This document shows positions 7,029-52,356 of a DNA stretch of 64,000 bases, in pieces (the first letter of the stretch is position 1; every line of letters starts with the position of its first letter). The DNA comes from Naegleria gruberi (Eukaryota): the NCBI GenBank assembly GCA_000004985.1, contig GG738930.1. One strand, 5' to 3'. Both the position numbers and the translations under genes were made by a program. The notes beneath the pieces are model-generated. The model did no database searches and had not been told where the DNA came from. It worked only from the letters and a program-made list of their open reading frames with translations.

Positions 7029-9968
7029 ATGCCCACCAATACAATAGCCACTTCTGCTACTCCCTCAACAAACAACTCGACTGCTGCATACTCAGCAACA
7101 ACAACAAATTCCAACTCCAATTTTTTACTTCGACCCTCTTCGAGAGAACCACGAGTTATACGAAAAGCTCCAACTCCTCAGCCTTATCAATCGAAAAAGT
7201 CTGCTATCGGTCCAACTAGTGNNNNNNNNNNNNNNNNNNNNNNNNNNNNNNNNNNNNNNNNNNNNNNNNNNNNNNNNNNNNNNNNNNNNNNNNNNNNNNN
7301 NNNNNNNNNNNNNNNNNNNNNNNNNNNNNNNNNNNNNNNNNNNNNNNNNNNNNNNNNNNNNNNNNNNNNNNNNNNNNNNNNNNNNNNNNNNNNNNNNNNN
7401 NNNNNNNNNNNNNNNNNNNNNNNNNNNNNNNNNNNNNNNNNNNNNNNNNNNNNNNNNNNNNNNNNNNNNNNNNAACGAGAAGCAAAACCTCCTGGAAATT
7501 CTGAGGTTCCTCCTCTCAAGAAGAAATCTTCATCAATAACAACCACTCTAACTTCATCACCTAAGGCTGCCTCTGGAGGAGAGAAAAAAAAGGCTTCTAA
7601 TCTATCTCCCTCGCCAGTAAGAAAGAGAGGTTACGAATTGGCCACCAAGTCAAGCTCGAGTTCTTCCCTATTGAAGAATGAAGAAGGAAGTGCTGCCAAG
7701 CCATCTCAATTGAGAAAATCAGGATCGTTTACAGGGCAGAATGTCATTTCTAATAATACAAAGAAGGAAGCAAATAATGGAAAAAAGTTGGCAAGACCAA
7801 AGGGATCTGCTTTTCAAAAGAAGCGTCCTCTTGATGATAAATCTGTTTCATACAAGCTGTTGGAAGAAATTGTCAATTCAACCATTACTCAGTTTATTAA
7901 GCAAGATGGAATTTTAAGTCATAGAGACTTACGCTTAATTATTAATAAGAAGATTGCCCTCGTCAAGTCAATCCATGACAATATTATTGGATCTGAAGCT
8001 GTATTTAGAACACCATTTGGGTCGAAAAAGTATTTACCAATCACGTATTGTGATTACATTGCAACGGGGAAACCATTGAAAATGATTGAGGATTACATTT
8101 TGGAACAAGTTTTACCAACCTATGCCAACACTCATAATACAACATCTTTCACAGGTTATCAAACAACACACTTGATAGAAGATGCAAGACAAATAATTGC
8201 TCAATGTGTGAATGCCAATTTGAAAAAACCAGAAGTTGCAAGTTCAACCTGTACAGTGAGTGGGGAGTGTGCTTCACAGGAATCCAACAACACTCAGAAG
8301 GAAGACGATGAAGATGTTATTATCTTTGCTGGAAGTGGTAGTGCAGCATGTATCAATACACTCATTCACTACATTGGAATCAGACAGAAAGTGAGAGAGG
8401 CACCAAGTGAAAAGGAGCTCCCTGTTGTCATTATCTCAACACTGGAACACCACAGTAATATTCTTGCTTGGAGAGAAACTGGAGCTTGTGTGATTCAAAT
8501 TATGGAAGATAAGTACGGTAATGTCGACCTGGATGAACTACTAATTCACCTCAAACAATTCAAAGACAGTGGAAGAATGCTAATTGTCTCAATGACTGCA
8601 GCTTCAAATGTAACTGGTGTTGTGACTGATACTGAAGCTATTGCCAAGTTGGCTCACGAAAATAATGCTTGGTGCTTTTTTGACTATGCTGGAGGTGCTC
8701 CATATTTGGATATTAATGTCAATCCAAAGAATGATCCTCTTCTTGCTAAGGATGCAGTCTTTATATCCCCACACAAATTTATTGGTGGTCCAAGCACTCC
8801 TGGTGTTTTGATTGCCAAGAAGAAACTCTTTTCAAATACAGTGCCAAGTCAACCTGGTGGTGGTACAGTGACCTACAATCACAGTTATACTCCAGTTGTT
8901 GAAGAAAAGGAGGAAGGAGGCACATCAAATATTATTGGAAGCATTCGGTGTGCTCTGGTATTCAAGTTGAAGGATGAAGTTGGACCAAAATTGATTCAGA
9001 GAATTGAGGAAAAGTATAGAGATAGAGCTTTAAAGACGTGGTCAACAAATCCCAATCTTGTAATGGTTGGTCCTGGATTGGACTGTATTGGGGAGGGAAA
9101 GGTTGAAAAACTTGCCTTCTTCTCCTTTTTGGTCAAACATGAAGACTACTTTTTGCATCCATCCTATGTGAGTTTGTTGTTGAATGATCTGTTTGGACTG
9201 CAGAGCCGTCCCGGATGTTCTTGTGCTGGTCCTTACGGGGCTGAAATATTGGGCATTCAAATGACCAAGTTAAATCTTATTGAAGCTGCCATTGTTGAAT
9301 CTATCAAGTCGTCCAATAGCTTGACTTGTTTGAAGCCAGGTTGGAGTAGACTCAATTTGAACTACTTTTTCGATGATAATACTGTTCAATTTGTTTTACA
9401 GGCTGTGGACTTTGTTGCAACTCATGGCTGGAAATTATTGCCTTACTATGTTTTTGATTCAAAAACCAATGAATGGAGTCATAGAAGATTTGGAAATAAT
9501 TCACCTATGCGTTTGTCAGGATATTTTGATAACTTTACCAAATACACAGAGGAAAATAGAAAGAAACTGACAGAGGTTTCATTTTCAAATGGCTTCTTGG
9601 AGTTTGTAGATAAGAATGGAGAACTTCACAACACCGAGCCAACCACACCATTATCATACAGTAATATTTTGAAAGAAGCAGAGTCTGTATTGAGAGAATC
9701 AACAAATAACTTTAATGCACTCTACATTAACATTGAATCTGAACTTAATAATATTTTTGGTGATGAGGAGCTCGGATTAAGACATAGATATGGTAATTTG
9801 CGATGGTTCATGCTTCCTTCTGAAGCTTTAATGGACATGAAAGGTATTGAACGTGAGAAACATACAGATCCTGTGATTGTTCCAAAAGTTTACCCATCCT
9901 CAGATAGTTATATCAAGCAAAAAAAGATTGAATCAAGAACATTCCTCAAATCAAGGTTAAATAAATAA
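7029..9968 (+). CDS. class V PLP-dependent aminotransferase-like protein (cysteine desulfurase / selenocysteine lyase fold) with a long low-complexity N-terminus; spans gap 7222-7473
   Basis: ATG at 7029. The motif FISPHKFIGGPSTPGVLIAKKKLF matches the S-x-HK-x-x-GGP pyridoxal-lysine signature of class V aminotransferases. IIFAGSGSAACINTLI and ASNVTGVV..FFDYAGGAPY match the family core. The frame across the gap cannot be assessed. Confidence 0.6.
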   Translation: MPTNTIATSATPSTNNSTAAYSATTTNSNSNFLLRPSSREPRVIRKAPTPQPYQSKKSAIGPTSXXXXXXXXXXXXXXXXXXXXXXXXXXXXXXXXXXXXXXXXXXXXXXXXXXXXXXXXXXXXXXXXXXXXXXXXXXXXXXXXXXXXXREAKPPGNSEVPPLKKKSSSITTTLTSSPKAASGGEKKKASNLSPSPVRKRGYELATKSSSSSSLLKNEEGSAAKPSQLRKSGSFTGQNVISNNTKKEANNGKKLARPKGSAFQKKRPLDDKSVSYKLLEEIVNSTITQFIKQDGILSHRDLRLIINKKIALVKSIHDNIIGSEAVFRTPFGSKKYLPITYCDYIATGKPLKMIEDYILEQVLPTYANTHNTTSFTGYQTTHLIEDARQIIAQCVNANLKKPEVASSTCTVSGECASQESNNTQKEDDEDVIIFAGSGSAACINTLIHYIGIRQKVREAPSEKELPVVIISTLEHHSNILAWRETGACVIQIMEDKYGNVDLDELLIHLKQFKDSGRMLIVSMTAASNVTGVVTDTEAIAKLAHENNAWCFFDYAGGAPYLDINVNPKNDPLLAKDAVFISPHKFIGGPSTPGVLIAKKKLFSNTVPSQPGGGTVTYNHSYTPVVEEKEEGGTSNIIGSIRCALVFKLKDEVGPKLIQRIEEKYRDRALKTWSTNPNLVMVGPGLDCIGEGKVEKLAFFSFLVKHEDYFLHPSYVSLLLNDLFGLQSRPGCSCAGPYGAEILGIQMTKLNLIEAAIVESIKSSNSLTCLKPGWSRLNLNYFFDDNTVQFVLQAVDFVATHGWKLLPYYVFDSKTNEWSHRRFGNNSPMRLSGYFDNFTKYTEENRKKLTEVSFSNGFLEFVDKNGELHNTEPTTPLSYSNILKEAESVLRESTNNFNALYINIESELNNIFGDEELGLRHRYGNLRWFMLPSEALMDMKGIEREKHTDPVIVPKVYPSSDSYIKQKKIESRTFLKSRLNK
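7222..7473. other. assembly gap (N run)
   Basis: 252 consecutive n. Confidence 1.
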
Positions 9969-11818: not shown

Positions 11819-14301
11819 TTATTCCAAAATGTTGAGAGTTGGTGTTTGAGCTTGTTGTTCACATAATCGAAGTAAATGTTGGGTTGGAAGGTCATTTGGG
11901 TTGACTTGTTGATATTCTCGAAATAGAGGAATGGCTTCTTCAAATTTACCTTCAAACAGAAGAGAGCAACCTTGGTTGTAAACTCCCCATTTTAAATATC
12001 TTTCCTTCTTATTGAAATGTGAATGTAAATCTTTGGTCGAGTTAAGTAAATGAGTAGAGATTGGAAACTTACCATCATCAGTTTCTTGTTTCATTTCAAT
12101 TGAATCTCCCAATTCATATAATAAACAATCTTTTGTCAATGAATTTGACATAGAAACACTTCCAATTTCCCAATTTTCTTGGTTGAAATCATCTAGAGAG
12201 GAAAAGAAATAATCCTCCCTTAATTCTCTTCTATCCAGGAATCTAGTCTCACACCTAGTGTGGCAATATTGCTTGATGTGCTGTGTGATAATGATTGGAA
12301 CTTTGAGTTTCTTGCCAAATCTTATTATTTGATCCAAATTATGTCTCGTGCTTGAAAAAATTGTAAAGTGCTTAATGTCTTTAGTTCCAATATTTCCACA
12401 AAATGTTTTTTGAGCACAAATAGCAAATCTGAAATTAATCAATTCACAAATTTCCTCCCTCAATAGTCCACTTTCTCTCCACTTGTTTTCTTTCACGTTG
12501 GTTAACTTTTCTTGTAAAAGTTGAGCGCTGGCAACTGCTTTTTCTTCGTGATTGTTCTGGTTAATAGTAGTATTATAAGCAATAGTTAAAATATCATTCT
12601 CAAAGTTGACCAAATGGCCAGATGTAGTCCTAATCACTGTGTCCACTTGGCTAAATAAATCTCCCAACAATGAAACTAGATGAGTTGGGTTTCCTTCTAA
12701 GGATAACAACCATTCATTCAATCCTTCAATGTACATTTGATTGATACTAATCTTTCTTGGTTCCAAATAGAGAGAAAATTTGCATTTCAATTTAGATGAT
12801 TTTTTCTTACTGTCCAAAATATTAGATAATTTTGAAGCTTTCCCTCCTTCAAGTGAATTATCTTCAATGCTTGAAAATGGTTGACTTTTTTCCAATTCAA
12901 CAGAATCTGAAGTCATTGTTCTAGGTGAAAAGGAATCCAACGAAAGTCTAGTTGCAGTTTCTTGTTCTCCATTTNNNNNNNNNNNNNNNNNNNNNNNNNN
13001 NNNNNNNNNNNNNNNNNNNNNNNNNNNNNNNNNNNNNNNNNNNNNNNNNNNNNNNNNNNNNNNNNNNNNNNNNNNNNNNNNNNNNNNNNNNNNNNNNNNN
13101 NNNNNNNNNNNNNNNNNNNNNNNNNNNNNNNNNNNNNNNNNNNNNNNNNNNNNNNNNNNNNNNNNNNNNNNNNNNNNNNNNNNNNNNNNNNNNNNNNNNN
13201 NNNNNNNNNNNNNNNNNNNNNNNNNNNNNNNNNNNNNNNNNNNNNNNNNNNNNNNNNNNNNNNNNNNNNNNNNNNNNNNNNNNNNNNNNNNNNNNNNNNN
13301 NNNNNNNNNNNNNNNNNNNNNNNNNNNNNNNNNNNNNNNNNNNNNNNNNNNNNNNNNNNNNNNNNNNNNNNNNNNNNNNNNNNNNNNNNNNNNNNNNNNN
13401 NNNNNNNNNNNNNNNNNNNNNNNNNNNNNNNNNNNNNNNNNNNNNNNNNNNNNNNNNNNNNNNNNNNNNNNNNNNNNNNNNNNNNNNNNNNNNNNNNNNN
13501 NNNNNNNNNNNNNNNNNNNNNNNNNNNNNNNNNNNNNNNNNNNNNNNNNNNNNNNNNNNNNNNNNNNNNNNNNNNNNNNNNNNNNNNNNNNNNNNNNNNN
13601 NNNNNNNNNNNNNNNNNNNNNNNNNNNNNNNNNNNNNNNNNNNNNNNNNNNNNNNNNNNNNNNNNNNNNNNNNNNNNNNNNNNNNNNNNNNNNNNNNNNN
13701 NNNNNNNNNNNNNNNNNNNNNNNNNNNNNNNNNNNNNNNNNNNNNNNNNNNNNNNNNNNNNNNNNNNNNNNNNNNNNNNNNNNNNNNNNNNNNNNNNNNN
13801 NNNNNNNNNNNNNNNNNNNNNNNNNNNNNNNNNNNNNNNNNNNNNNNNNNNNNNNNNNNNNNNNNNNNNNNNNNNNNNNNNNNNNNNNNNNNNNNNNNNN
13901 NNNNNNNNNNNNNNNNNNNNNNNNNNNNNNNNNNNNNNNNNNNNNNNNNNNNNNNNNNNNNNNNNNNNNNNNNNNNNNNNNNNNNNNNNNNNNNNNNNNN
14001 NNNNNNNNNNNNNNNNNNNNNNNNNNNNNNNNNNNNNNNNNNNNNNNNNNNNNATAACAAACACACTCATTAATGTCAAACTCGAAATTACTATAAGCAT
14101 ACAATTTCTTATAGAAATTTGGCAATTGCTCGCCGATAAGAAGAAGACGGAAGAGTTTGTATCCGAATTATTGTATTTTCTATTCCAATCATTGTCTTCA
14201 TAACTAAATCTCCCATTAGAATAAATATCATGTTGAGGTAAATCAAAGGCAAGAGGTAAAACCTTACGAGAGGACGTTGATGATCGCCTTGTGAGTGGCA
14301 T
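11819..14301 (-). CDS. membrane protein with a cyclase-homology domain and a C-terminal TPR-like region; spans gap 12975-14053
   Basis: ATG at 14301. The N-terminal ORF runs into the gap with a hydrophobic stretch. The post-gap ORF contains FRFAICAQKTFCGNIGTKDIKHFTIFSSTRHNLDQIIRFGKKLKVPIIITQ. This aligns to the C-terminal half of class III cyclase catalytic domains (l.lRiGihsG.v..G.iG.....y.v.G..VN.AsR...........i.vs). A KWGVYNQGCSLLFEGKFEEAI helical-repeat tail follows. Frame continuity across the gap is unknowable. Confidence 0.5.
12975..14053. other. assembly gap (N run)
   Basis: 1079 n. Confidence 1.
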
Positions 14302-18076: not shown

Positions 18077-20529
18077 ATAGAAATGGAATAGTTGGACGAA
18101 ACTTGGACTATGTCTCNNNNNNNNNNNNNNNNNNNNNNNNNNNNNNNNNNNNNNNNNNNNNNNNNNNNNNNNNNNNNNNNNNNNNNNNNNNNNNNNNNNN
18201 NNNNNNNNNNNNNNNNNNNNNNNNNNNNNNNNNNNNNNNNNNNNNNNNNNNNNNNNNNNNNNNNNNNNNNNNNNNNNNNNNNNNNNNNNNNNNNNNNNNN
18301 NNNNNNNNNNNNNNNNNNNNNNNNNNNNNNNNNNNNNNNNNNNNNNNNNNNNNNNNNNNNNNNNNNNNNNNNNNNNNNNNNNNNNNNNNNNNNNNNNNNN
18401 NNNNNNNNNNNNNNNNNNNNNNNNNNNNNNNNNNNNNNNNNNNNNNNNNNNNNNNNNNNNNNNNNNNNNNNNNNNNNNNNNNNNNNNNNNNNNNNNNNNN
18501 NNNNNNNNNNNNNNNNNNNNNNNNNNNNNNNNNNNNNNNNNNNNNNNNNNNNNNNNNNNNNNNNNNNNNNNNNNNNNNNNNNNNNNNNNNNNNNNNNNNN
18601 NNNNNNNNNNNNNNNNNNNNNNNNNNNNNNNNNNNNNNNNNNNNNNNNNNNNNNNNNNNNNNNNNNNNNNNNNNNNNNNNNNNNNNNNNNNNNNNNNNNN
18701 NNNNNNNNNNNNNNNNNNNNNNNNNNNNNNNNNNNNNNNNNNNNNNNNNNNNNNNNNNNNNNNNNNNNNNNNNNNNNNNNNNNNNNNNNNNNNNNNNNNN
18801 NNNNNNNNNNNNNNNNNNNNNNNNNNNNNNNNNNNNNNNNNNNNNNNNNNNNNNNNNNNNNNNNNNNNNNNNNNNNNNNNNNNNNNNNNNNNNNNNNNNN
18901 NNNNNNNNNNNNNNNNNNNNNNNNNNNNNNNNNNNNNNNNNNNNNNNNNNNNNNNNNNNNNNNNNNNNNNNNNNNNNNNNNNNNNNNNNNNNNNNNNNNN
19001 NNNNNNNNNNNNNNNNNNNNNNNNNNNNNNNNNNNNNNNNNNNNNNNNNNNNNNNNNNNNNNNNNNNNNNNNNNNNNNNNNNNNNNNNNNNNNNNNNNNN
19101 NNNNNNNNNNNNNNNNNNNNNNNNNNNNNNNNNNNNNNNNNNNNNNNNNNNNNNNNNNNNNNNNNNNNNNNNNNNNNNNNNNNNNNNNNNNNNNNNNNNN
19201 NNNNNNNNNNNNNNNNNNNNNNNNNNNNNNNNNNNNNNNNNNNNNNNNNNNNNNNNNNNNNNNNNNNNNNNNNNNNNNNNNNNNNNNNNNNNNNNNNNNN
19301 NNNNNNCAGTCAGCTCTCTCCATAGAAGTATCCAAAAATGATCTACAAAACCAATCAAAAGCCTCAGACATTGTCTCTCTATTGTAGAGGAAGAAAAGAA
19401 CTGGAAAATTTGTTGAAGTGTCGTTCAGTTGGGCAGGAGAGCTCAATTGAGAAATTGCTCTACCAGCATGATTTTCAAACATGTTTAAAAATTCCAAAAC
19501 AGATACATTCATGGTAGAATAGAGTTGTGTAGATTCTCCTACAACTTGTTTGTTTGGAACCTTGTACAAAAACTTTTGGGCAATAAAATCTTCAGTAACA
19601 GCTGGGAAGAATGATGAGGAAGATGCACTCAATACATTATTAATCAATGTTGTAACATAGCTGGTCTGAACAGTAGCTAAGGCATGAGCGGTACTTGCTG
19701 AAGATTCATTCAAATATCTATACCTAGCTTGAATAGAACGAATGTGATTGGCCATAATGCTTGGAGCACCAGCTATTGAGCAAATCTTTTCTTCTAACAC
19801 TGTTCTACTGGTAAATTCTGACGAAAAGACCAGAGACATTGTTAATAAAATTAATAAAACAAGGAATGAAACAATCACAAACGGTAAAAATGTGAAATAA
19901 TAGGATTTTCTGTGTTCTGGAGTGTTGATTGAATTTCTATAGAAGGCTTCTTGTTTCATTGATTCTTCCATTCTTGCACTGATCGAATCCCAGTTATCTA
20001 CAACTTCATCGAATGATACTCCATGTTTCAGAGTGTCTGATTTCCTTCTTTTCATAAGTGATGACTCTTCTGAGGCACTGGTATAAGGAACTACTCTATT
20101 ACTTTTTGAATGAGACTGCTTGTTGGTTTTGGATTTCTCTTCCTCAATTTGATTAGCCTCCTCATATAATTCATTGGCCACTTCAATCTCAAATCTAAAT
20201 ATCTCCAAAAAGTATGCGTAAGCTCTCAACAGGGTCTTGTTGTTCATATTGGTATACATGCAATTCTTGTATGCATTTTCACAAAATATTATCAAATTAT
20301 TGGATTTTCTGTTAATCTTTTCAAGTTTGTCCTCAGAAGGATTTTCACTGGAAAGCTCTTTGAAAAATTCCTGGTGCAATGCCAGTATCTGAGATTGTTT
20401 CTTATCGAGTCTCTCTAATAATTTTTTAACTTCATAACTAACATTAGCATAATTCTCAGAGTTGGCTTCAATCTCTTTGCATCTCAAAAAGTAATGGAAA
20501 ACTTGAACGAAATTTGGGTTTTGTTTCAA
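18073..20529 (-). CDS. PAS-cyclase paralogue, N-terminal part (C-terminal catalytic part lost in gap 18117-19306)
   Basis: About 70% identical to the gene at 14546..18076 over the N-terminal coiled region, the TM block and the FPVLFFLYNRETM segment. The first codon reported at 20529 is TTG, and an in-frame TGA lies 6 codons upstream. The conserved N-terminal block therefore has no in-frame ATG. The annotated 3' end at 18073 is a TGA that actually lies inside the downstream paralogue's 5' coding extension, in a different frame. Confidence 0.6.
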   Translation of the reverse strand: MKQNPNFVQVFHYFLRCKEIEANSENYANVSYEVKKLLERLDKKQSQILALHQEFFKELSSENPSEDKLEKINRKSNNLIIFCENAYKNCMYTNMNNKTLLRAYAYFLEIFRFEIEVANELYEEANQIEEEKSKTNKQSHSKSNRVVPYTSASEESSLMKRRKSDTLKHGVSFDEVVDNWDSISARMEESMKQEAFYRNSINTPEHRKSYYFTFLPFVIVSFLVLLILLTMSLVFSSEFTSRTVLEEKICSIAGAPSIMANHIRSIQARYRYLNESSASTAHALATVQTSYVTTLINNVLSASSSSFFPAVTEDFIAQKFLYKVPNKQVVGESTQLYSTMNVSVLEFLNMFENHAGRAISQLSSPAQLNDTSTNFPVLFFLYNRETMSEAFDWFCRSFLDTSMERADXXXXXXXXXXXXXXXXXXXXXXXXXXXXXXXXXXXXXXXXXXXXXXXXXXXXXXXXXXXXXXXXXXXXXXXXXXXXXXXXXXXXXXXXXXXXXXXXXXXXXXXXXXXXXXXXXXXXXXXXXXXXXXXXXXXXXXXXXXXXXXXXXXXXXXXXXXXXXXXXXXXXXXXXXXXXXXXXXXXXXXXXXXXXXXXXXXXXXXXXXXXXXXXXXXXXXXXXXXXXXXXXXXXXXXXXXXXXXXXXXXXXXXXXXXXXXXXXXXXXXXXXXXXXXXXXXXXXXXXXXXXXXXXXXXXXXXXXXXXXXXXXXXXXXXXXXXXXXXXXXXXXXXXXXXXXXXXXXXXXXXXXXXXXXXXXXXXXXXXXXXXXXXXXXXXXXXXXXXXXXXXXXXXXXXXXXXXXXXDIVQVSSNYSISI
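18117..19306. other. assembly gap (N run)
   Basis: 1190 n. Confidence 1.
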
Positions 20530-22735: not shown

Positions 22736-23349
22736 NNNNNNNNNNNNNNNNNNNNNNNNNNNNNNNNNNNNNNNNNNNNNNNNNNNNNNNNNNNNNNNNN
22801 NNNNNNNNNNNNNNNNNNNNNNNNNNNNNNNNNNNNNNNNNNNNNNNNNNNNNNNNNNNNNNNNNNNNNNNNNNNNNNNNNNNNNNNNNNNNNNNNNNNN
22901 NNNNNNNNNNNNNNNNNNNNNNNNNNNNNNNNNNNNNNNNNNNNNNNNNNNNNNNNNNNNNNNNNNNNNNNNNNNNNNNNNNNNNNNNNNNNNNNNNNNN
23001 NNNNNNNNNNNNNNNNNNNNNNNNNNNNNNNNNNNNNNNNNNNNNNNNNNNNNNNNNNNNNNNNNNNNNNNNNNNNNNNNNNNNNNNNNNNNNNNNNNNN
23101 NNNNNNNNNNNNNNNNNNNNNNNNNNNNNNNNNNNNNNNNNNNNNNNNNNNNNNNNNNNNNNNNNNNNNNNNNNNNNNNNNNNNNNNNNNNNNNNNNNNN
23201 NNNNNNNNNNNNNNNNNNNNNNNNNNNNNNNNNNNNNNNNNNNNNNNNNNNNNNNNNNNNNNNNNNNNNNNNNNNNNNNNNNNNNNNNNNNNNNNNNNNN
23301 NNNNNNNNNNNNNNNNNNNNNNNNNNNNNNNNNNNNNNNNNNNNNNNNN
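22736..23349. other. assembly gap (N run)
   Basis: 614 n. Confidence 1.
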
Positions 23350-23453: not shown

Positions 23454-25046
23454 ATGAATCCATTTCTTAACCTTGATTCTCTGATATTGAATTTGACTGA
23501 TAATGATAATAATTTATTGGAAGACTTTCCAACAATTGGCAGTGTTACCAACACTGAAGAAAGTAATAGTTCAAGTCCACTAACAGAAGAATTATCTGAA
23601 ACCAATAGTGACAATCAAACATCTAATGAAGTTGACTTTCATCCCATCTCTTGTATTCGTTGTAGGCGTATGCACAAATATTGTTGTAAGTATTCCACAT
23701 AATATGTCAGAATTATGAGAATGTAACAAAACATGCAAATAGCCAAGAACAAACCTGCATGTGAAAGATGTACCTCGAGAGGTGTTGAATGCATCTATAG
23801 AGAACCTAAGAAAATCTTGAAAAGTAAGGAACATTCACCAACATCAACAAGCAAGAGAAAGAGGGATGCATCATCTGACCATCAAGTGGATGATAATCAT
23901 CCCTCACCCAAGCATGTGGTGGTCAATTTGGAAGAAGCACATGTCAATACAACAACCATTGAACATTATGCACCATGGTACTTTTCCATGCCTCTTCCTC
24001 TCAACTTTTTTGTTACGAGTGTGACTAGGAGGGAAAACATGCATTTAAATAGAGATTTATTTGAACAGTACTTTGGAAAATATCAAGCATGCGAATCACC
24101 AGAAAGTTACATGCTGGAAAGGAATGCCTTTTATTGGAGTGTGCAAGCTCTGTTATATCAATCATGTGGAAAGTTGAATTTGGCTGAGGAATGTGGTATG
24201 AAATCGAGAAATTTAATTTCAAAAAGTTTCAATCCAAGTTGTATTATAGTTTCGTATACATATCTAAATTTAGGACTCTTCGAAACGGGAAGAGGAAATG
24301 TAGAAATTTCAAATTTTGATTTGCACTGTTGCAAATTTGGAATGCAAGCCAACATTTCAAATGGAGAGTTGAAGAATGAGAATTTGGCAAGGACTGTTTC
24401 ATTTGTTGAGCAATTTTCTTTGGGTGAGATGGATGTGTTGCGCCTTGCAAGTCGACTACCTTTCATCTTTGAGTTTATTTGTGGAAATGCATTAGCATCT
24501 CAATTGGTGAATTTATTGCAACAAAATATTACAAAAGAAAATTGTCATGATATTGTCAGTACAGGATCAGACATTGTAAAATTGTGTATTTCTAACATTC
24601 GAGCCAGAATAACCAAAGATTCCAACAATGATGAAAACTCTTCACAAAATGGATTTGAATTCACTCAAACATTATTAATTGAAGGATTGAAAATGGGAGT
24701 TTTTATTTCTTCCCTTAGTAGAACTGACCTCATAGAAGAATGTAGCTTGAAAATAACCTATCTGTGTGAAAGTGATGCTTTCAATCATTGTAGCTTGTTC
24801 ATGATTCCATTCATTGTAATGGCCACACGTGTTAACTTGCAAGTGGTGAAATCCATCTCCAATGGTTCAAGAATTAATGCTCCCATAGGAGTGGGCGAGC
24901 TTGGAAATCTGCAACCAATAGATTATTATGGAATTCTGCGAAGAAATCAAAGAGCTCTCCACTCTTTAAACTCTCGATTTTCAATCGTTTCGATTGTTCA
25001 TGGAAAATTGATGGCATCAATAGGTGAAATACTTGCAAACAAATAA
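23454..25046 (+). CDS. Zn(II)2Cys6 binuclear-cluster (Gal4-type) DNA-binding protein; exons 23454..23685 and 23743..25046
   Basis: Two ORFs join through a 57-nt GTAAGT..TAG intron at 23686..23742. Joined, they give C-IR-C-RRMHKY-C-SKNKPA-C-ER-C-TSRGVE-C. That is exactly the Gal4 spacing C-X2-C-X6-C-X6-C-X2-C-X6-C, including the conserved K-P before the fourth Cys. The intron falls between the third and fourth cysteines. Gap 22736-23349 lies upstream, so further 5' exons cannot be excluded. Confidence 0.6.
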
Positions 25047-25269
25047 AGTATCCAAAATGTGCCTCATTGAAAATCACGAATTATATTCCACTTGTATATC
25101 TCCGTCAAGTTCAAATCAAAGTTTCCCACTTCTCCAAAAATTGCCATTACACTAGTTTTCACTTCACCAACATATAAAAATCAATAAAACATTTCAACAG
25201 AAGTTGGTATCATTTATTAATGACAGTTTCTTGTGAAAGGAGTTTCTTCCACACGTGTTTTAATAAATC

Positions 25270-25512
25270 TTAAGCATTGTTGCATTGTTCGACCATGCCT
25301 GGAATTAAACAAGCATCAATTAACCAACCAATACCACACAAAGCACCAGTGAGGAGGTAAACAATACCCATAATTGGTGAATTCAAGTAGAATCTAATCA
25401 TGAAACTAAACTAAACCATGCACACAACAATCGAAACTTACCTATGGATACCAAGGAATCCAAACAAGAACCACAAAATGTAAGCAATAGCAATATCCTT
25501 TTGTTCAGCCAT
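25270..25512 (-). CDS. TM2-domain protein (64 aa); exons 25512..25442 and 25393..25270
   Basis: Not in the ORF track. By hand: ATG (rc of 25510-25512) MAEQKDIAIAYILWFLFGFLGIHR, then a 48-nt GTAAGT..TAG intron (25441..25394), then FYLNSPIMGIVYLLTGALCGIGWLIDACLIPGMVEQCNNA and TAA. This matches the TM2-domain signature G.HRFYLg....G..qL.t.GG.GIWwLiD..lI. Confidence 0.7.
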
Positions 25513-25989
25513 TTTTTTCAAGTGTTAAATCTTTAGTTTGGTTTCGTTATTATAACTGTCATGGAATTTATACCTTGTTACACGCACTGAGGGTAAATGT
25601 TAAAAGAGCGTTAATCATCACACCCTAAAAGGAGTGTTTTAATGGCAATGAAGAAACTAAACTAAACCAAGATAATTGACATAACTCTGTAATATGGTGG
25701 CCATGGTTTTCTGAAAAGTTGCGATGATGGCTATTCTGTAAATACTCCAATGTCACTTTCCTTTTGACTGAGGTTTGTTGACTTTTGACTTGTATGAAAT
25801 GTCACTTTCTTTCTAAGGGTTGTTTGTTGTTACAAACCAAAGTGCATCAATAGTTTACAATTGTTGTTTCTGTAGTGCGTTGTCGGTAAAGCGAGTCCGA
25901 TTTTGAATGGCTTCCTTAACGAAAATCAATAAAATATACTATTCAAAACAGAAGAACAAAGTTAAAGATAAAAAAATTAATCATTATCA

Positions 25990-26523
25990 ATGGCCACATC
26001 AGAGAAGAGTTTAATCCTAGCCTATCTGCTTTGGTTTCTATTCGGATTTTTTGGCTTTCATAGGTAAGTCCTTATTATCGACCTTTCTTCCACTTTCCTC
26101 CAGATTCTACTTGGATTCTCCAATCATGGGAATACTCTTCTTCTTCACAGGCGCTTTCTGTGGCGTAAGTACCTTCCAACCAACCCATAAATCCTCTAAC
26201 TCTCCTATCAGTTTGGTTGGCTAATTGACTTTTGTCTCATTCCTCATCTCATCCACCAATCCAATTCGAAACACACAATTTCCACAACAACAACAATTTT
26301 AAATTCAAATCCAACAAATTTTAATAATCAAAATCCAAATGTTGTAAATAATCAAATTGACAACAGCAATCAAAATAATTTTGTTCAACCACCTTCGTTT
26401 AATATAAAGGCAGTTCAGCCAATGATGATGTCGATGGAACAGCAACCTGCGTATGTGCAGGCAGGTGTTGTGGGGTATGATTTACAGCAACTACCACCTC
26501 CTGCTTATTCATTTCAACAATAA
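25990..26523 (+). CDS. TM2-domain protein (148 aa) with an Asn/Gln-rich tail; exons 25990..26063, 26104..26164 and 26212..26523
   Basis: Not in the ORF track. By hand: MATSEKSLILAYLLWFLFGFFGFH-R (40-nt intron 26064..26103, GTAAGT..CAG), then FYLDSPIMGILFFFTGAFCG (47-nt intron 26165..26211, GTAAGT..CAG), then FGWLIDFCLIP and a low-complexity tail to TAA at 26521-26523. The first intron sits at the identical position and phase (CAT AG|A) as in the divergent paralogue at 25270..25512. Confidence 0.7.
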
Positions 26524-26684
26524 GTTTAATAAAAATCTATTCGAAAAAAGTTTAGTTTCGAATTGGATTCTTTTCCTTTTTACTAAATTTGATTCAAACA
26601 TACCAATTTTGGAGTCGTACTGGAACCTGTAATTAGATGTTGTGATAATTGGAAAGTTTTGAAATTGCGTTTCCAATAAAAAAA

Positions 26685-29195
26685 ATGCAACCTAGACTAT
26701 TCTTCATCTTTGTTTGTCTCATTCTCATTTTCGAATATTCAACTTGCAATGATATTAGAATCATCAAACCAATCAATCTTCAAAGTCAACTACAAGATAT
26801 CTCTGAACCATTCTCCATCATTTCTATTCGAAAGTATTACAGTTTAATCATTAATAATATAGCTCCAATCATGGGCAAAAGTGCAGAATTTCTTGACGAT
26901 TCAACAACTCTTGCTTCATTCTCCAACCTTTCCTGCGTTTTAAATATTCCATCCAATGGTGAATTAGCTCCATATGACAAGTCAATTGTCAACTCGATAG
27001 AAACGACAAGCTCTGTATGTTCATCTTTCATTTTGGTTGAAAGAGGAAACATGCAAATCGATGCAGCACATCATGCCTACCTAGTTTTGGGCGAAGAACC
27101 AACTTTAATGATTTCTCCGAATGATTTAATTCCACTTTGGTCAATTGTGTTGAAAAATGCAATGTTTTATGAGAATACTCGATTTGGAATTTGGAATAGG
27201 ACAATTGACCAGGTGTTTACATTATCACCGATATATTTTACACCTTATTCTGTTGAATATGTATTGGATAATCAATTAGAAAGTGAAAGAAATGAAATTG
27301 TGAAAGAATTGGAAGAGGAAATTTTGGTTGACTTGGAACTTTTTGAAATAGTTCATCGAATTCAATTAGCGGAAGGGAGAGTAATGGGATTTAGTTCGAT
27401 TAGAGTGGACGAAACATTTTTTTGTAATTCAACATTACATAATTCAACTTTTGTGGAAGAATATCACAATGCCTTATATAGAATTGATTTCTATTTATAT
27501 ATAATACTTAATCTAGGTTTAGTCAATTCAAGTGGTACAATTTCTGGTATTCAGGATATTGATTTGGTATTTAGTGATGGGAAATTTCGTAAATTTAATC
27601 CAAATTTCATATTAGAATCTATTCGAAACGTATTACAACGAGGAGGTTTCAACAATTATCTATCCTATTCTCATCCTAACTCTTCTTTCGACATGCACTA
27701 CTTTTCAAACTTACAAAAATCAAATATACGATCAGTTTCTGAACTCATGATTCATTCCTACTGTTTCAGTTATTACAATCACTATGCCTCTCAATACTAT
27801 TTCAGAGATAGCTCTCTATTTTACCTAATCTTCAATGATGTGATTTACTTTCTACTAGCATTCACTGGAATTGCCCTCCTCCTTCTCAACATCACAAGTT
27901 ATTCATTGGATTTCAATCTTTTCCTAAAGAAGAGAATTTTACTTCCCCTCATGGGACCTCCTACCTTAATATTGATAAGTTTGTGTTATACAGTTGCGAT
28001 CAGATCAAAGTTATCGGTTGCAACTTATTGGATTCTCATGATTATTATTGTGTTTCCAGTTCCAGTTTTGATAGGTTCATATATGGTAACACTTTTTAGG
28101 TTTTCCTATTTAAAGAATATGGATTTGTGGCAGAAAGTTGTTTTCAAACATCCCAAAATTCAAAGACATTTGGCATCTGTCAAATCCTCAGTGGTTATTT
28201 CATTAATTTTGACATTGGCAGGTTTCGTCATTTGTGCAGCTCCTGTCATTGGTGCTTCTCTCGCTGTTTTATATAGCAGTTTGAGTGTTCCACAGGAGAT
28301 GTTCATTATCATGTTTGCTGCTGAGATTTTGTACATGTTAATTCTTGCAGTAATTTTCTTTACTGTTGATTTGAAGAATAATGGCGCCAAAATTATTAGA
28401 CGAAAGGGAATAGGATACTTTTTCTTCTTTGATGATCCGTTTTATTATAGAATTGACTTGTTAATTATGATGGTTATGATGTTGTTGATTATTCCAATAA
28501 TTGTTGGTTCTTTGAATGATACACTTTCGTATTTTATTGTTCGAAAGGTATTCTCATTGATTTTCTTCATGATGTTTTATTCGATAATTGGTGGAACTGT
28601 TACAATATTTTATTGGATTGGCAAAGTGAAACGATTATTATTTAGGAATAAGGAAGAAGAACCATTAGTTACACAATTAGAAAGTTTGTTGGAAGACGAA
28701 ACTTTCAGAGAAATATTCAAATCTTATTCAAAGAATGAATTTTCAATGGAGAATATTCTTCTATATGAGGAATTGGAAAGATTGAGAAAACAAAGGAAAT
28801 GTACACTGCAAGATTTGAAAAATTTATTCGAAACCTTTCTTTCAGCAACAGCAGTTCACGAAGTCAATTTTCCATCAGGAATTAAAAAGAGTTATCAAGA
28901 AATTATGGACTCTTACAAGGACGACATTTCAGATAATAGTGAAGGCAGTAATCTTTCAAAATTTGTTTCGAATTTAGCAAACCTAAACCTTCAGGATCAA
29001 TTAAAACACCAAACCAAAAAGGAAAATTCAAGAATTGAGCAAGTTTTCGAACTACTTAGACCTGATCTACTGAAAAACATGTTAGACACCTTTTCTCGAT
29101 TAGAAACCACTCCAGAATTTATCAATTGGAAGAAAATGAAAGAAATTCAAGTTTGTGAACTTGGAGAAGAAAAATCAAAGGAAGAAAATGTTTAA
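26685..29195 (+). CDS. 7-TM receptor-like protein with a large N-terminal ectodomain and a C-terminal RGS domain
   Basis: The track start at 26649 is TTG. The first ATG at 26685 begins a signal peptide (MQPRLFFIFVCLILIFEYSTC). Seven hydrophobic helices lie between about 27840 and 28620. The C-terminal FREIFKSYSKNEFSMENILLYEELERLRK..LFETFLSATAVHEVNFPS matches the RGS-domain consensus (F..FL.sEFSeENl.FW.a.e.fk....lf..yi...a..evNl). Confidence 0.65.
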   Translation: MQPRLFFIFVCLILIFEYSTCNDIRIIKPINLQSQLQDISEPFSIISIRKYYSLIINNIAPIMGKSAEFLDDSTTLASFSNLSCVLNIPSNGELAPYDKSIVNSIETTSSVCSSFILVERGNMQIDAAHHAYLVLGEEPTLMISPNDLIPLWSIVLKNAMFYENTRFGIWNRTIDQVFTLSPIYFTPYSVEYVLDNQLESERNEIVKELEEEILVDLELFEIVHRIQLAEGRVMGFSSIRVDETFFCNSTLHNSTFVEEYHNALYRIDFYLYIILNLGLVNSSGTISGIQDIDLVFSDGKFRKFNPNFILESIRNVLQRGGFNNYLSYSHPNSSFDMHYFSNLQKSNIRSVSELMIHSYCFSYYNHYASQYYFRDSSLFYLIFNDVIYFLLAFTGIALLLLNITSYSLDFNLFLKKRILLPLMGPPTLILISLCYTVAIRSKLSVATYWILMIIIVFPVPVLIGSYMVTLFRFSYLKNMDLWQKVVFKHPKIQRHLASVKSSVVISLILTLAGFVICAAPVIGASLAVLYSSLSVPQEMFIIMFAAEILYMLILAVIFFTVDLKNNGAKIIRRKGIGYFFFFDDPFYYRIDLLIMMVMMLLIIPIIVGSLNDTLSYFIVRKVFSLIFFMMFYSIIGGTVTIFYWIGKVKRLLFRNKEEEPLVTQLESLLEDETFREIFKSYSKNEFSMENILLYEELERLRKQRKCTLQDLKNLFETFLSATAVHEVNFPSGIKKSYQEIMDSYKDDISDNSEGSNLSKFVSNLANLNLQDQLKHQTKKENSRIEQVFELLRPDLLKNMLDTFSRLETTPEFINWKKMKEIQVCELGEEKSKEENV

Positions 29196-42741: not shown

Positions 42742-43505
42742 NNNNNNNNNNNNNNNNNNNNNNNNNNNNNNNNNNNNNNNNNNNNNNNNNNNNNNNNNNN
42801 NNNNNNNNNNNNNNNNNNNNNNNNNNNNNNNNNNNNNNNNNNNNNNNNNNNNNNNNNNNNNNNNNNNNNNNNNNNNNNNNNNNNNNNNNNNNNNNNNNNN
42901 NNNNNNNNNNNNNNNNNNNNNNNNNNNNNNNNNNNNNNNNNNNNNNNNNNNNNNNNNNNNNNNNNNNNNNNNNNNNNNNNNNNNNNNNNNNNNNNNNNNN
43001 NNNNNNNNNNNNNNNNNNNNNNNNNNNNNNNNNNNNNNNNNNNNNNNNNNNNNNNNNNNNNNNNNNNNNNNNNNNNNNNNNNNNNNNNNNNNNNNNNNNN
43101 NNNNNNNNNNNNNNNNNNNNNNNNNNNNNNNNNNNNNNNNNNNNNNNNNNNNNNNNNNNNNNNNNNNNNNNNNNNNNNNNNNNNNNNNNNNNNNNNNNNN
43201 NNNNNNNNNNNNNNNNNNNNNNNNNNNNNNNNNNNNNNNNNNNNNNNNNNNNNNNNNNNNNNNNNNNNNNNNNNNNNNNNNNNNNNNNNNNNNNNNNNNN
43301 NNNNNNNNNNNNNNNNNNNNNNNNNNNNNNNNNNNNNNNNNNNNNNNNNNNNNNNNNNNNNNNNNNNNNNNNNNNNNNNNNNNNNNNNNNNNNNNNNNNN
43401 NNNNNNNNNNNNNNNNNNNNNNNNNNNNNNNNNNNNNNNNNNNNNNNNNNNNNNNNNNNNNNNNNNNNNNNNNNNNNNNNNNNNNNNNNNNNNNNNNNNN
43501 NNNNN
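42742..43505. other. assembly gap (N run)
   Basis: 764 n. Confidence 1.
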
Positions 43506-50400: not shown

Positions 50401-52356
50401 GGTTTTGACAATGGATTGAATATTGATCAATCAACTTTGTTGTTCGATAAGCAATTTACACCTGGTAGCTACATGTTCACTGCTGTTTTCAGCAAGTCTT
50501 CAAGATCTTCAAGTACTTCAGTCAAGGTAATTGTCACTAGTCAAACTAAGGCAACTTCAGTAAGAATTTACATTGATACTCCTTCAGGATCTGATGTTTC
50601 AGCTATTGATCCATCCAATGATTTGATCTTGCAAGCACAAAGCTTGGATCTTCTCTCCCCTCAAAGAGTATTCTCTTGGTCTTCCAGTGACTTTACCTTT
50701 GATTCTACTATTGATTTAACAAAGAAATATTTAACAATTCCAAAGAGTTTACTTGCTCCAGGTGCTTCATACTCTGTCTCTATTACTGTCACTGATGGTG
50801 TCAAGACTGGTCAAGCCAGTATTTCATTCATCGTTAATGCTCCACCATCCTTAGGTATTTTTGAAGTTTCTCCATCTACAGGTGTAGCTTTAGTTGATGA
50901 ATTCAAAGTTTCATGTGGTAATGGTTGGTCAGATTCTCAACTTCCTCTTTCATTCAAATTCGTGTTCAGACAAAAGGGAGAAGAAATTTGGAAGGTATTG
51001 AAAGAAAAGTCTGAAACAAGATCTTTCAGAACTTCCATGCCAACTGGTCAATTGGAAATCAAGGCTATTGTTTATGATGCTAAGGGCGCTTTCACTGAAA
51101 CCACTTCAAATATTAATGTCACTACTCCAGTTGATGTTAGTTCAGCTATTCAATCTTTGTCCGTGTTGACTACTTCTACCTTGACTCCTTCCTCTGCTTC
51201 ATCAGCTTTGAGTGTCATTTTGGCAGTTAAACCAACCACAGCTGAAGATAAACAAAAATTGGTGGCAGCTGGTTTGAAGATTGTTCAAGCATACTTTGCT
51301 CAAATGGATGCTGAACAAAATGTCACTTCCCAAACAGAAGCTTCAACAAGTTCATCCTTGTCTGTTATTTCCTCAGTCAGTACTTGTGTTGAAAATCTTC
51401 CAGACGAAACTGTTAGTTTGACCATTACCAAATTCAAAGCAATGATTGAAGGTGCTTACTTGCTTCTCAAACTTGCAAGTCAAGATATCAACTCAGCACT
51501 TGACAGCGCTGCTTCAATTCAAACTCACGTTTCCAAGAAGGTCACTTCAAGATCTGTACTTTTCACTAAAGACGAAGTCAAGAGCATTGATTCTATCAAG
51601 GATACATTACTTTCACTCCAATTGAAGAATGCAGTTCCTGATATGCCTGCAACAAGAACATTCGGATCTGATTCTTTCTCTTATGCAAGATTACTCAGTG
51701 TTTCTACATTGAGCAGCTTGAATGAAACCATCAATTCAGTTTCATCATTCAAACTCTCTGCAACATTCAACAGTTTGAGTCAAGTTTCAAGCTTGGATAA
51801 TGTCAAATTAGTTATGAAAGTTCAAACTCAAGCTAAGGCAGTTTCCAAACTAGTTACTTTCAGAGTAGAATCCAATGATGTAGATGTTGGTGTTTCATCC
51901 AATTCCAATACCACCTACATTGCTGAATTCAATATTGAAAAGAATCCATCAACTAGAAATATTAGAGAAACTAGAAATGTATGTTCAGTATTACAAAATG
52001 GTGTTTTGGTTGCAGCAAGTGGATGTACCATTTCTTCAACATCTGGTGGAATGTTCACCATTCAAGTTTCTTCATCTGGATCTTATGCCGTTGTCAGTGA
52101 AGAAGTTGTTGCTCCACAAGCTTCTCCAAAAACTAGCTCATCAAAGACAACCACCGTGATTACAACCAAATCAAACAATCTTGAATACCTTGCCTTCCTC
52201 GTTTTACTCGTTCCAGTAATTGCTGTCGTTGTTATCATTATTATTGTGGTTGTGTGCTGTCTCAGAAAGAAGAAGACTAAATACACGAAAGGACAACATG
52301 AAAGAAACTTTGAAGACAAGTCATTCATGGAATTGAATGAAATGAGAGAAATTTAA
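47447..52356 (+). CDS. type I membrane protein: signal peptide, EGF-like repeat array, long Ser/Thr-rich ectodomain, single C-terminal TM and short basic tail; spans gap 47892-48367
   Basis: ATG at 47447 with signal peptide (LLQASVGLIVATLCCMVAFEG). After the gap, my hand translation from 48370 is stop-free and already in the EGF frame (CNEKWLCIANETSTCFGKNSTDSSVCSGHGTCSAGVCKCSPGYTGGNCS..). It continues into ORF 48622..52356 with about 13 C.G.G.C.....C.C.G.(Y/F).G..C EGF units. A roughly 1000-aa S/T-rich region follows, then TM LAFLVLLVPVIAVVVIIIIVVVCCL and then RKKKTKY... Confidence 0.65.
47892..48367. other. assembly gap (N run)
   Basis: 476 n, plus a single n at 47872. Confidence 1.

What the first reader, a model, noticed from the sequence alone, without database searches (positions are those of the whole stretch)
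25270..26523. Divergently oriented pair of small multi-exon TM2-domain genes missed by the ORF track, with a shared intron position
Reading the 25.2-26.6 kb gap in the ORF track by hand reveals two head-to-head genes about 480 bp apart. Each encodes a TM2-domain protein (G.HRFYL....G.....TG..CG.GWLID.CLIP). Both are interrupted after the HR codon (CAT AG|A) by a 40-48 nt GTAAGT intron at the identical position and phase. The plus-strand copy has a second intron and a long Asn/Gln-rich tail. This is an inverted duplication with a conserved gene structure. It also shows that short-exon genes are systematically invisible to the supplied ORF scan. The shared roughly 480-bp interval is a candidate bidirectional promoter.
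Basis: seen in the sequence. Interest (0 to 1): 0.55.

Follow-up and report, generated by a model that had tools for sequence, protein, structure and literature searches.

The report
Two unannotated Naegleria TM2 membrane-protein genes
The gap holds two real, head-to-head, intron-containing genes of the amoeba Naegleria gruberi that encode small two-helix membrane proteins of the well-known TM2 family; they are missing from the public protein sets searched here but are otherwise ordinary.

Summary
The window is a Naegleria gruberi scaffold. Gene A (minus strand, 25512..25270, one 48-nt intron) encodes 64 aa. Gene B (plus strand, 25990..26523, introns of 40 and 47 nt) encodes 148 aa. After splicing, both match Pfam TM2 (PF05154) end to end (E 1.7e-20 and 4.4e-17). 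Both carry a GTAAGT...AG intron at the same site and phase (CAT AG|A, inside the HRFY loop motif).

The copies are 68% identical in the domain. Synonymous sites are saturated and dN is 0.22, so this is an old inverted duplication with both copies kept under purifying selection. The N. fowleri orthologue and a Naegleria-like environmental contig have introns at other positions and none at HR.

Neither protein is in a 15-billion-protein collection that does hold the neighbouring N. gruberi gene and a third, annotated N. gruberi TM2 paralogue. Both genes therefore appear unannotated.

They are bare TM2 hairpins: no signal peptide, no ectodomain, HRF instead of DRF. They resemble bacterial YozV-type and other protist proteins, not metazoan TM2D1-3. 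B's disordered N/Q/P-rich tail ends in PPAY, a C-terminal motif strongly enriched across the family. No RNA evidence was available and the promoter idea is untested. Verdict: new members of a known kind, low interest.

The parts
25442..25512 (-). Gene A exon 1 (ATG 25512-25510; MAEQKDIAIAYILWFLFGFLGIH + first 2 nt of the Arg codon): first TM helix
25394..25441 (-). Gene A intron, 48 nt, GTAAGT...ATTAG, phase 2. An in-frame alternative acceptor would give a 36-nt intron and add 4 aa.
   Evidence: homology favours the 48-nt version
25270..25393 (-). Gene A exon 2 (..R FYLNSPIMGIVYLLTGALCGIGWLIDACLIPGMVEQCNNA, TAA stop at 25272-25270): loop and second TM helix
25513..25989 (.). 477-bp spacer between the two start codons; candidate shared promoter region (arrangement only)
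   Evidence: no Rfam match
25749..25829 (+). Two copies of a 32-nt imperfect direct repeat (AATGTCACTTTC...GTTTGTTG; 25749-25780 and 25798-25829, 78%) in the middle of the spacer
   Evidence: D1; AATGTCAC is not enriched window-wide
25653..25669 (+). Spacer copy of the 17-mer GAAACTAAACTAAACCA. The only other copy in the window lies inside gene A's intron (25402-25418).
   Evidence: D4; 2 found, 0.01 expected
25990..26063 (+). Gene B exon 1 (MATSEKSLILAYLLWFLFGFFGFH + 2 nt of Arg): first TM helix
26064..26103 (+). Gene B intron 1, 40 nt, GTAAGT...CCAG, phase 2, same codon position as gene A's intron
26104..26164 (+). Gene B exon 2 (..R FYLDSPIMGILFFFTGAFCG)
26165..26211 (+). Gene B intron 2, 47 nt, GTAAGT...TCAG, phase 0; absent from gene A
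26212..26523 (+). Gene B exon 3: end of the TM2 domain (FGWLIDFCLIP) plus a 92-aa N/Q/P-rich tail and TAA stop
26497..26508 (+). PPAY (PPxY-type) motif, 4 residues from B's C-terminus
   Evidence: direct reading

Best explanation
These are two genuine, spliced, protein-coding paralogues of Naegleria gruberi. They arose by an old inverted duplication of a small intron-containing gene, and both have been kept by purifying selection. Each encodes a bare TM2 domain (PF05154): two transmembrane helices joined by a short HRFYL(N/D)SP loop, with small-residue faces (GxxG in helix 1, TGAxCGxGW in helix 2) of the kind that pack helices together. A is the domain alone (64 aa). B adds a 92-aa disordered Asn/Gln/Pro-rich tail ending in PPAY. 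The first intron (phase 2, after CAT AG) was inherited by both copies from their common ancestor. B's second intron is private to B. Most likely mode of action (inferred, not shown): small membrane-embedded hairpins that self-associate or associate with each other in a membrane, with B's tail acting as a docking or sorting arm. The biochemical function of the TM2 domain is unknown in any organism. Shown here: gene structure, family membership, paralogy, constraint, and absence from the public protein collection searched. Inferred: actual splicing, co-expression from the shared spacer, topology, oligomerisation and tail function. The confidence given applies to the gene identity, structure and duplication history, not to the inferred mode of action.
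For: Host identity: the neighbouring ORF 26685-29195 is 100% identical to a 'predicted protein [Naegleria gruberi]'. Pfam TM2 hits at 73.4 and 62.5 bits, each one ungapped stretch across the splice junctions. The exons align in register with 17 homologues. Canonical GTAAGT...AG introns of 40-48 nt match other introns in the window. Retention of either first intron gives an immediate stop. Transcript-derived relatives (Heterolobosea sp. BB2, Endostelium, Ceratiomyxa) and the N. fowleri gene read straight through G(I/V)HR(F/L/C)YL. A and B share 36 of 53 domain residues; pS=0.76 (saturated) and dN=0.22. Inverted DNA repeats of 62 nt (79%) and 38 nt (76%) cover the exons only. Two hydrophobic segments appear at about residues 6-23 and 29-56. 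An AF2 model of the N. fowleri orthologue gives helix 3-24, a turn at 25-28 and helix 29-70, with pLDDT 81-92 over residues 1-60 and below 50 in the tail. In an NJ tree A+B are sister (59% bootstrap) and N. fowleri + L004 are sister (94%). B's tail frame is open with P=0.002.
Against: There are no transcript data for N. gruberi, so the junctions are inferred. An in-frame alternative acceptor exists in gene A (36-nt intron, +4 aa). A+B monophyly has only 59% bootstrap on 52 columns, so the timing of the duplication relative to the N. gruberi / N. fowleri split is unresolved. Function, topology and oligomerisation rest on analogy. There is no solved structure of any TM2 domain detectable by sequence.
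Confidence: 0.85

Rival explanations
1. One or both copies are unexpressed relics (pseudogenes) that merely retain recognisable TM2 similarity, which would explain why they are absent from the public protein sets.
For: Neither protein is in the public collection. B sits on a long branch (43-52% identity to other family members against 56-67% for A).
Against: Both have intact start codons, stops and frames, and all six splice sites are canonical. Synonymous sites are saturated while dN is only 0.22, so both lineages have been constrained since the duplication. Both score far above the Pfam cut-off. B's 92-codon tail is open with P=0.002. Very short exons (24, 20 and 41 codons) are a sufficient reason for gene callers to miss them.
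Confidence: 0.06
2. The shared intron position is not inherited. Two introns were inserted independently at the same AG|A proto-splice site after the duplication.
For: The two introns share nothing beyond GTAAGT and AG. Intron positions in this small gene are labile: five different positions occur among four Naegleria-clade genes. The HR intron is absent from N. fowleri and L004.
Against: Site and phase are identical. With about 171 nucleotide positions in the shared domain and two introns in B, a chance coincidence is about 1% if sites are equiprobable. Saturated synonymous sites mean that unalignable introns are expected even if they were inherited. The tree weakly places A and B as sisters, which makes a single gain before the duplication the simplest history.
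Confidence: 0.08
3. The genes are of recent bacterial origin: either horizontal transfer into Naegleria or contaminating bacterial DNA in the assembly.
For: A is 67-69% identical to a 64-aa protein (P0002) that lies among clearly bacterial genes (ComEC, SBP_bac_5, G6PD). That is as close as A is to the N. fowleri orthologue. The proteins are bare domains like bacterial YozV-type proteins and carry HRF, not the metazoan DRF.
Against: Contamination is excluded. Both genes have spliceosomal introns, have host-like GC, and sit between N. gruberi genes on one scaffold. Close relatives exist in other heteroloboseans and in Amoebozoa transcriptomes. The three Naegleria sequences clustered at 93% in the small tree. 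The domain is too short (about 52 columns) to resolve deeper history.
Confidence: 0.1
4. The gene models differ in detail. Gene A may use the 36-nt intron (product GIHSFMIRFYL..., 68 aa), or B's tail may contain a further intron or end elsewhere.
For: An in-frame AG lies 12 nt upstream of the preferred acceptor in A. The N. fowleri orthologue has an intron in its tail.
Against: Only the 48-nt version restores the ungapped family consensus G-x-HRFY. B's tail is one uninterrupted open frame ending in the family-typical P/Q/Y-rich C-terminus.
Confidence: 0.1

Closest known systems
Naegleria fowleri FDP41_011350, 'TM2 domain-containing protein' (P0001, 92 aa)
   Same: Best named hit to A (67% over 95%). 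It is a bare TM2 hairpin starting at residue about 3, with the same MAxKD start, the LTGALCGIGWLID block and the MV(E/D)xCN end, plus a T/Q/P/Y-rich disordered tail like B's.
   Different: It is a single gene at a non-syntenic locus, and its divergent neighbour is not a TM2 gene. Its introns lie after GWL (phase 0) and in the tail, with none at HR. Its loop reads HRLYLDQP.
Naegleria gruberi NAEGRDRAFT_81353 / XP_002671946.1 (P0167, 122 aa), the annotated TM2 paralogue
   Same: Same species, a bare TM2 domain (Pfam 49.2 bits) with an HRFYLDS loop and a P/Q/Y-rich tail.
   Different: It lies on another scaffold and is a distant paralogue that does not group with A/B. Its gene structure could not be read because its DNA was not retrievable.
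Bacterial short TM2 proteins ('TM2 domain-containing membrane protein YozV' type)
   Same: 60-110 aa consisting of one TM2 domain with the G-x-HRFY loop. P0002 is 67-69% identical to A.
   Different: They are prokaryotic genes without introns, and most lack P/Q/Y-rich tails: only 3 of the 37 family representatives of 200 aa or less carry PPxY. No NCBIfam model matches A or B.
Metazoan TM2D1/TM2D2/TM2D3 (Drosophila biscotti, amaretto, almondex)
   Same: They share the Pfam TM2 domain: two TM helices and a short conserved loop (PMC8714088). The TM2 domain alone (Amx lacking its ectodomain) is biologically active in flies, where it inhibits Notch at the gamma-secretase step.
   Different: TM2D proteins have a signal sequence, a long divergent extracellular region and a DRF loop motif (PMC8714088). 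A and B start directly with the first helix and have HRF. No orthology is implied.
Multi-TM2-repeat proteins of marine invertebrates (for example Lingula anatina XP_013400308.1 and Anneissia japonica XP_033126577.1)
   Same: They are the top scorers in the exhaustive search. Their repeats are of the same H(R/H)FYLxRP subtype at 40-46% identity, and their P/Q/Y-rich C-termini carry PPxY, as B's does.
   Different: They have 3-7 tandem TM2 domains and are 240-760 aa long. They are uncharacterised.

Membership tests
Pfam TM2 domain (PF05154) | Profile score above the curated gathering threshold (27.9 bits) over essentially the whole 51-position model | tested here: met
   A scores 73.4 bits (residues 4-51, profile 2-50). 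B scores 62.5 bits (residues 5-52, profile 2-50).
Pfam TM2 domain (PF05154) | Two transmembrane helices joined by a short linker | tested here: met
   Kyte-Doolittle windows above 1.6 occur at about residues 6-23 and 29-56 in both proteins. The AF2 model of the N. fowleri orthologue gives helix 3-24, a turn, then helix 29-70 at high pLDDT.
Pfam TM2 domain (PF05154) | Conserved (D/H)RF motif in the loop | tested here: met
   HRFY is present in both, and is recreated only by splicing.
Metazoan TM2D1-3 / Almondex family | N-terminal signal sequence followed by an extracellular domain before the TM2 domain (PMC8714088) | tested here: not met
   The first helix begins at residue about 6-7 of both proteins, and the start codon is the first ATG after an in-frame stop.
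Metazoan TM2D1-3 / Almondex family | DRF motif in the intracellular loop (PMC8714088) | tested here: not met
   Both have HRF.
Bacterial YozV-type short TM2 proteins | Small protein made of one TM2 domain with no other domain | tested here: met
   A is 64 aa with TM2 only and is 67-69% identical to P0002, which sits in a bacterial gene context. Architecture only: A is a eukaryotic gene with a spliceosomal intron.
Eukaryotic bare-TM2 proteins with a P/Q/Y-rich tail (unnamed group: N. fowleri FDP41_011350, N. gruberi NAEGRDRAFT_81353, Heterolobosea BB2, Endostelium, Ceratiomyxa) | N-terminal TM2 domain followed by a low-complexity tail rich in P, Q, Y, T | tested here: met
   B has a 92-aa tail (N15, Q13, P9) ending QQLPPPAYSFQQ. 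A lacks a tail, so only B fits fully.
Bidirectional (divergent) promoter pair | Head-to-head genes with start sites less than 1 kb apart | tested here: met
   477 bp separate the ATGs.
Bidirectional (divergent) promoter pair | Mapped divergent transcription start sites and correlated expression | not testable with these tools
   No transcript data. The only leads are a 32-nt direct repeat and a 17-mer repeat in the spacer.
PY-motif membrane adaptors or cargo of WW-HECT ligases (works like NDFIP, Sna3 or LITAF; comparison from my own knowledge) | PPxY motif in a tail | tested here: met
   PPAY at 26497-26508, 4 aa from B's C-terminus. P=0.025 on tail shuffling, and P=0.0045 for a motif within the last 20 aa. 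Family-wide, 32 of 129 tails have PPxY in the last 30 aa against 2.5 expected.
PY-motif membrane adaptors or cargo of WW-HECT ligases | A Nedd4-type C2-WW-HECT ligase in the host, and a cytosolic orientation of the tail | tested here: inconclusive
   A published survey finds the Nedd4-like group only in Opisthokonta and Apusozoa and describes Excavata as HECT-poor (PMC3673628). The charge distribution around A's helices weakly favours the loop, not the termini, being cytosolic (direct reading). Topology is not testable here.

The most novel reading that the evidence does not exclude
Bare TM2 hairpins with P/Q/Y-rich tails ending in PPxY, often with P(T/S)AP as well, could form an unrecognised, eukaryote-wide class of membrane-anchored docking proteins for WW-domain or ESCRT machinery. 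Gene B would be the Naegleria representative. The A/B pair would then be a tail-less plus tailed module co-expressed from one spacer and acting as a hetero-oligomer. I found no paper linking PF05154 to PY motifs.
Probability: 0.1. Interest if true: 0.5.

Novelty: new member of a known kind. Interest (0 to 1): 0.2.

Why it matters
In practical terms this adds two genes to the N. gruberi gene set. It also shows that very small genes with 20-25-codon exons escape both ORF scans and, apparently, the annotation behind the public N. gruberi protein set. For intron evolution it is a compact case: four Naegleria-clade copies of a gene with a domain of about 60 codons carry introns at five different positions, and only the two local paralogues share one. 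For TM2-domain biology, whose mechanism is unknown even for the Alzheimer- and Notch-linked TM2D proteins, it adds minimal domain-only and domain-plus-tail versions in a tractable protist. It also points to a family-wide C-terminal PPxY signature that could be tested. None of this changes current understanding.

Tried and rejected
- Exact look-ups of window ORFs and of the N. gruberi proteins P0024 and P0167 in the gene-position index found nothing. I therefore could not read the official gene calls at this locus or the gene structure of the third paralogue.
- The word-index search with B returned nothing. I use it only as evidence that B is not in the collection.
I used the N. fowleri orthologue instead.
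- No synteny was found between the window and the N. fowleri locus.
- There is no further TM2 copy in the window.
- NCBIfam, PDB sequence search and Rfam (24900-26800) all gave no hit.
- Promoter motifs: AATGTCAC is not enriched window-wide. The 9-mers shared with the N. fowleri upstream region are about as many as chance gives.
- The low-GC 2-kb bins are assembly gaps (runs of N), not biology.
- NEDD4 docking by B's PPAY was considered and marked down, because the Nedd4-like group is reported absent outside Opisthokonta and Apusozoa.
- N. gruberi intron statistics could not be found in the literature held: the genome paper is not held and the others lack the figures.

Full report
**What the window is.** The ORF just downstream of the finding (26685-29195) is 100% identical over 836 aa to a 'predicted protein [Naegleria gruberi]'. 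The window is therefore a draft N. gruberi scaffold. It has 34.6% GC outside ten runs of N. Those N runs, not biology, explain the 14-24% GC bins in the composition profile.

**The observation.**
- Gene A, minus strand: exon 1 25512..25442, intron 25441..25394 (48 nt, GTAAGT...ATTAG), exon 2 25393..25270. Product: MAEQKDIAIAYILWFLFGFLGIHRFYLNSPIMGIVYLLTGALCGIGWLIDACLIPGMVEQCNNA (64 aa).
- Gene B, plus strand: exons 25990-26063, 26104-26164 and 26212-26523, with introns of 40 and 47 nt, both GTAAGT...AG. Product: 148 aa.
- In both genes the first intron follows CAT AG (phase 2, inside the Arg codon of HRFY). Retention gives an immediate TAA stop.
- The two ATGs are 477 bp apart.
- AATAAA lies 5 nt (B) and about 50 nt (A) past the stops.

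**Is it more than chance?** Yes.
- Both spliced products match Pfam TM2 (PF05154) at 73.4 and 62.5 bits against a cut-off of 27.9. Each match is one ungapped stretch covering profile positions 2-50 of 51, so it runs straight across the junctions.
- The five domain-bearing exons, aligned separately, fall in register with 17 homologues.
- The exons show up as inverted DNA repeats: 62 nt at 79% and 38 nt at 76%.
- B's 92-codon tail is open with P=0.002, while the other five frames carry 3-7 stops each.
- The octamer AGGTAAGT is over-represented in the window (4 found, 1.15 expected). Short GTAAGT introns of 40-57 nt that join long ORFs occur at 3603(-), 23686(+), 31313(-) and 46332(+), so these introns are typical of this genome.
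- Transcript-derived relatives and the N. fowleri gene read through the G-x-HR(F/L/C)Y motif without interruption. This is the best available proxy for RNA evidence.
- One caveat: an in-frame AG 12 nt upstream in A's intron would add four residues. Homology favours the 48-nt intron.

**History of the pair.**
- A and B share 36 of 53 domain residues. By Nei-Gojobori counting, pS=0.76 (saturated) and dN=0.22. The duplication is therefore old, and both copies have been under purifying selection since.
- The two introns no longer align, as expected at that depth.
- The N. fowleri orthologue (P0001, 67% to A) lies at a non-syntenic locus with a non-TM2 divergent neighbour. Its introns lie after GWL (phase 0) and in the tail, with none at HR.
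- A 713-bp environmental contig encodes a protein 82% identical to the N. fowleri one. It has no intron at either of those sites but has a GTAAGT donor one nucleotide after CLIP.
- That makes five intron positions among four Naegleria-clade genes, with only A and B sharing one.
- NJ trees place A+B as sisters (59% bootstrap) and N. fowleri + L004 as sisters (94%). A smaller tree groups the three Naegleria sequences at 93% but leaves their order unresolved.
- The simplest history has the HR intron present in the A/B ancestor and copied by an inverted duplication in the N. gruberi lineage. B later gained, or alone retained, a second intron. A lost, or never had, the tail.

**Annotation status.** The word-index search with A returned no N. 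gruberi protein, and the search with B returned nothing at all. Exact look-ups of A, B and two alternative models in the 15-billion-protein collection all failed. That collection does contain the neighbouring N. gruberi protein and a third, distant N. gruberi TM2 paralogue, XP_002671946.1 / NAEGRDRAFT_81353. A and B therefore appear to be missing from the public gene set. I could not inspect the official gene calls directly.

**What kind of TM2 protein.**
- According to PMC8714088, metazoan TM2D1-3 have a signal sequence, a divergent ectodomain, two TM helices and a DRF loop.
- A and B start directly with helix 1 and have HRF. They therefore fail two defining features of that family, while fully meeting those of the Pfam domain.
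- In architecture they match bacterial YozV-type mini-proteins. P0002, in a clearly bacterial gene context, is 67-69% identical to A.
- They also match a set of protist proteins from Heterolobosea sp. BB2, Endostelium and Ceratiomyxa that carry P/Q/Y-rich tails.
- The exhaustive search with the N. fowleri orthologue found 2412 cluster representatives at E<=1e-3. The top scorers are multi-TM2-repeat proteins of marine invertebrates.
- An AF2 model of the orthologue is a helical hairpin (helix 3-24, turn, helix 29-70; pLDDT 81-92 over residues 1-60) with a disordered tail.
- No solved structure is detectable by sequence.

**Mechanism.**
- The biochemical role of the TM2 domain is unknown. Truncated fly Amx, consisting essentially of the TM2 domain, is active on its own (PMC8714088), so a domain-only protein such as A is plausible as a functional unit.
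- My best inference is that these are membrane hairpins that associate through their small-residue helix faces, with B's tail serving as an interaction arm.
- A lead turned up in passing. PPxY is strongly enriched at the C-termini of the family: 43 of 129 tails against 8.8 expected from tail-only shuffles, and 32 against 2.5 within the last 30 residues.
- B ends ...LPPPAYSFQQ (P=0.0045 for a PPxY in the last 20 residues).
- That would suggest WW-domain or ESCRT docking. However, the Nedd4-like C2-WW-HECT group is reported only from Opisthokonta and Apusozoa (PMC3673628).
- The charge pattern around A's helices weakly favours the termini facing outward.
- I therefore rate this reading low for Naegleria.

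**The spacer.** Nothing decisive was found.
- A 32-nt imperfect direct repeat sits at its centre.
- Two 9-mers are shared with the N. fowleri upstream region, but that is about the chance number.
- A 17-mer, GAAACTAAACTAAACCA, occurs only twice in 64 kb: once in the spacer and once inside A's intron (0.01 expected). This is unexplained.
- There is no Rfam match.

**Verdict.** The genes are ordinary: two new, apparently unannotated members of a known and widespread family, from an old inverted duplication.

Noticed in passing
window 25402-25418 and 25653-25669: The 17-mer GAAACTAAACTAAACCA occurs exactly twice in the window (0.01 expected). One copy lies inside gene A's intron and the other 141-157 nt upstream of A's ATG, in the same orientation; the match extends to 23 nt at 91%. 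It could be a paired cis element or a trace of local sequence copying into the intron. Unexplained.
   Followed up: partly
family-wide (P0027-P0176); window 26497-26508: Close relatives of these TM2 proteins, mostly multi-repeat proteins some of which are named as marine invertebrates, carry PPxY, often with P(T/S)AP, at the extreme C-terminus far more often than tail-only shuffles predict (32 against 2.5 in the last 30 aa). B ends with PPAY. I found no paper linking PF05154 to PY motifs.
   Followed up: partly
L001 6001-6428; L004 394-560: Intron positions in the small Naegleria TM2 gene differ in every lineage examined: after GWL and in the tail in N. fowleri, and one nucleotide after CLIP in the environmental Naegleria-like contig. 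The HR intron is seen only in the two N. gruberi copies.
   Followed up: yes
window 23686-23742: The neighbouring 437-aa ORF (23733-25046, +) probably has an upstream exon. A GTAAGT donor at 23686 and a 57-nt intron would join 91 open codons to it, so that gene is also multi-exon. It carries a KPACERCTSRGVECIY stretch that looked to me like a zinc-cluster motif, but Pfam gave no such hit.
   Followed up: no
window 48622-52356 (+): A 1244-aa ORF has EGF-type repeats and a strong REJ domain match (PF02010, E 4e-42), the module known from polycystin-1 and the sea-urchin egg-jelly receptor, plus a C-terminal TM-like region. This is a notable architecture for a heterolobosean.
   Followed up: no
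window 7222-7473, 12975-14053, 18117-19306, 22736-23349, 33500-34191, 39634-40449, 42742-43505, 47872, 47892-48367, 62886-62935: Ten runs of N (assembly gaps). They create spurious six-frame 'ORFs' and the very low-GC bins in the composition profile.
   Followed up: yes
L002 6001-6195 (P0002): A 64-aa TM2 protein in an unmistakably bacterial gene neighbourhood (ComEC, SBP_bac_5, G6PD) is 67-69% identical to the Naegleria protein A, as close as the N. fowleri orthologue is. The domain is either extremely conserved or has moved between domains of life.
   Followed up: partly
P0167 tail (N. gruberi XP_002671946.1, another scaffold): The annotated third paralogue ends in YVPPQQAYYPPQQGYVPPQQGY repeats. 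From memory, these resemble the GYPPQQ repeats of annexin VII-type N-termini that bind penta-EF-hand proteins. Not tested.
   Followed up: no
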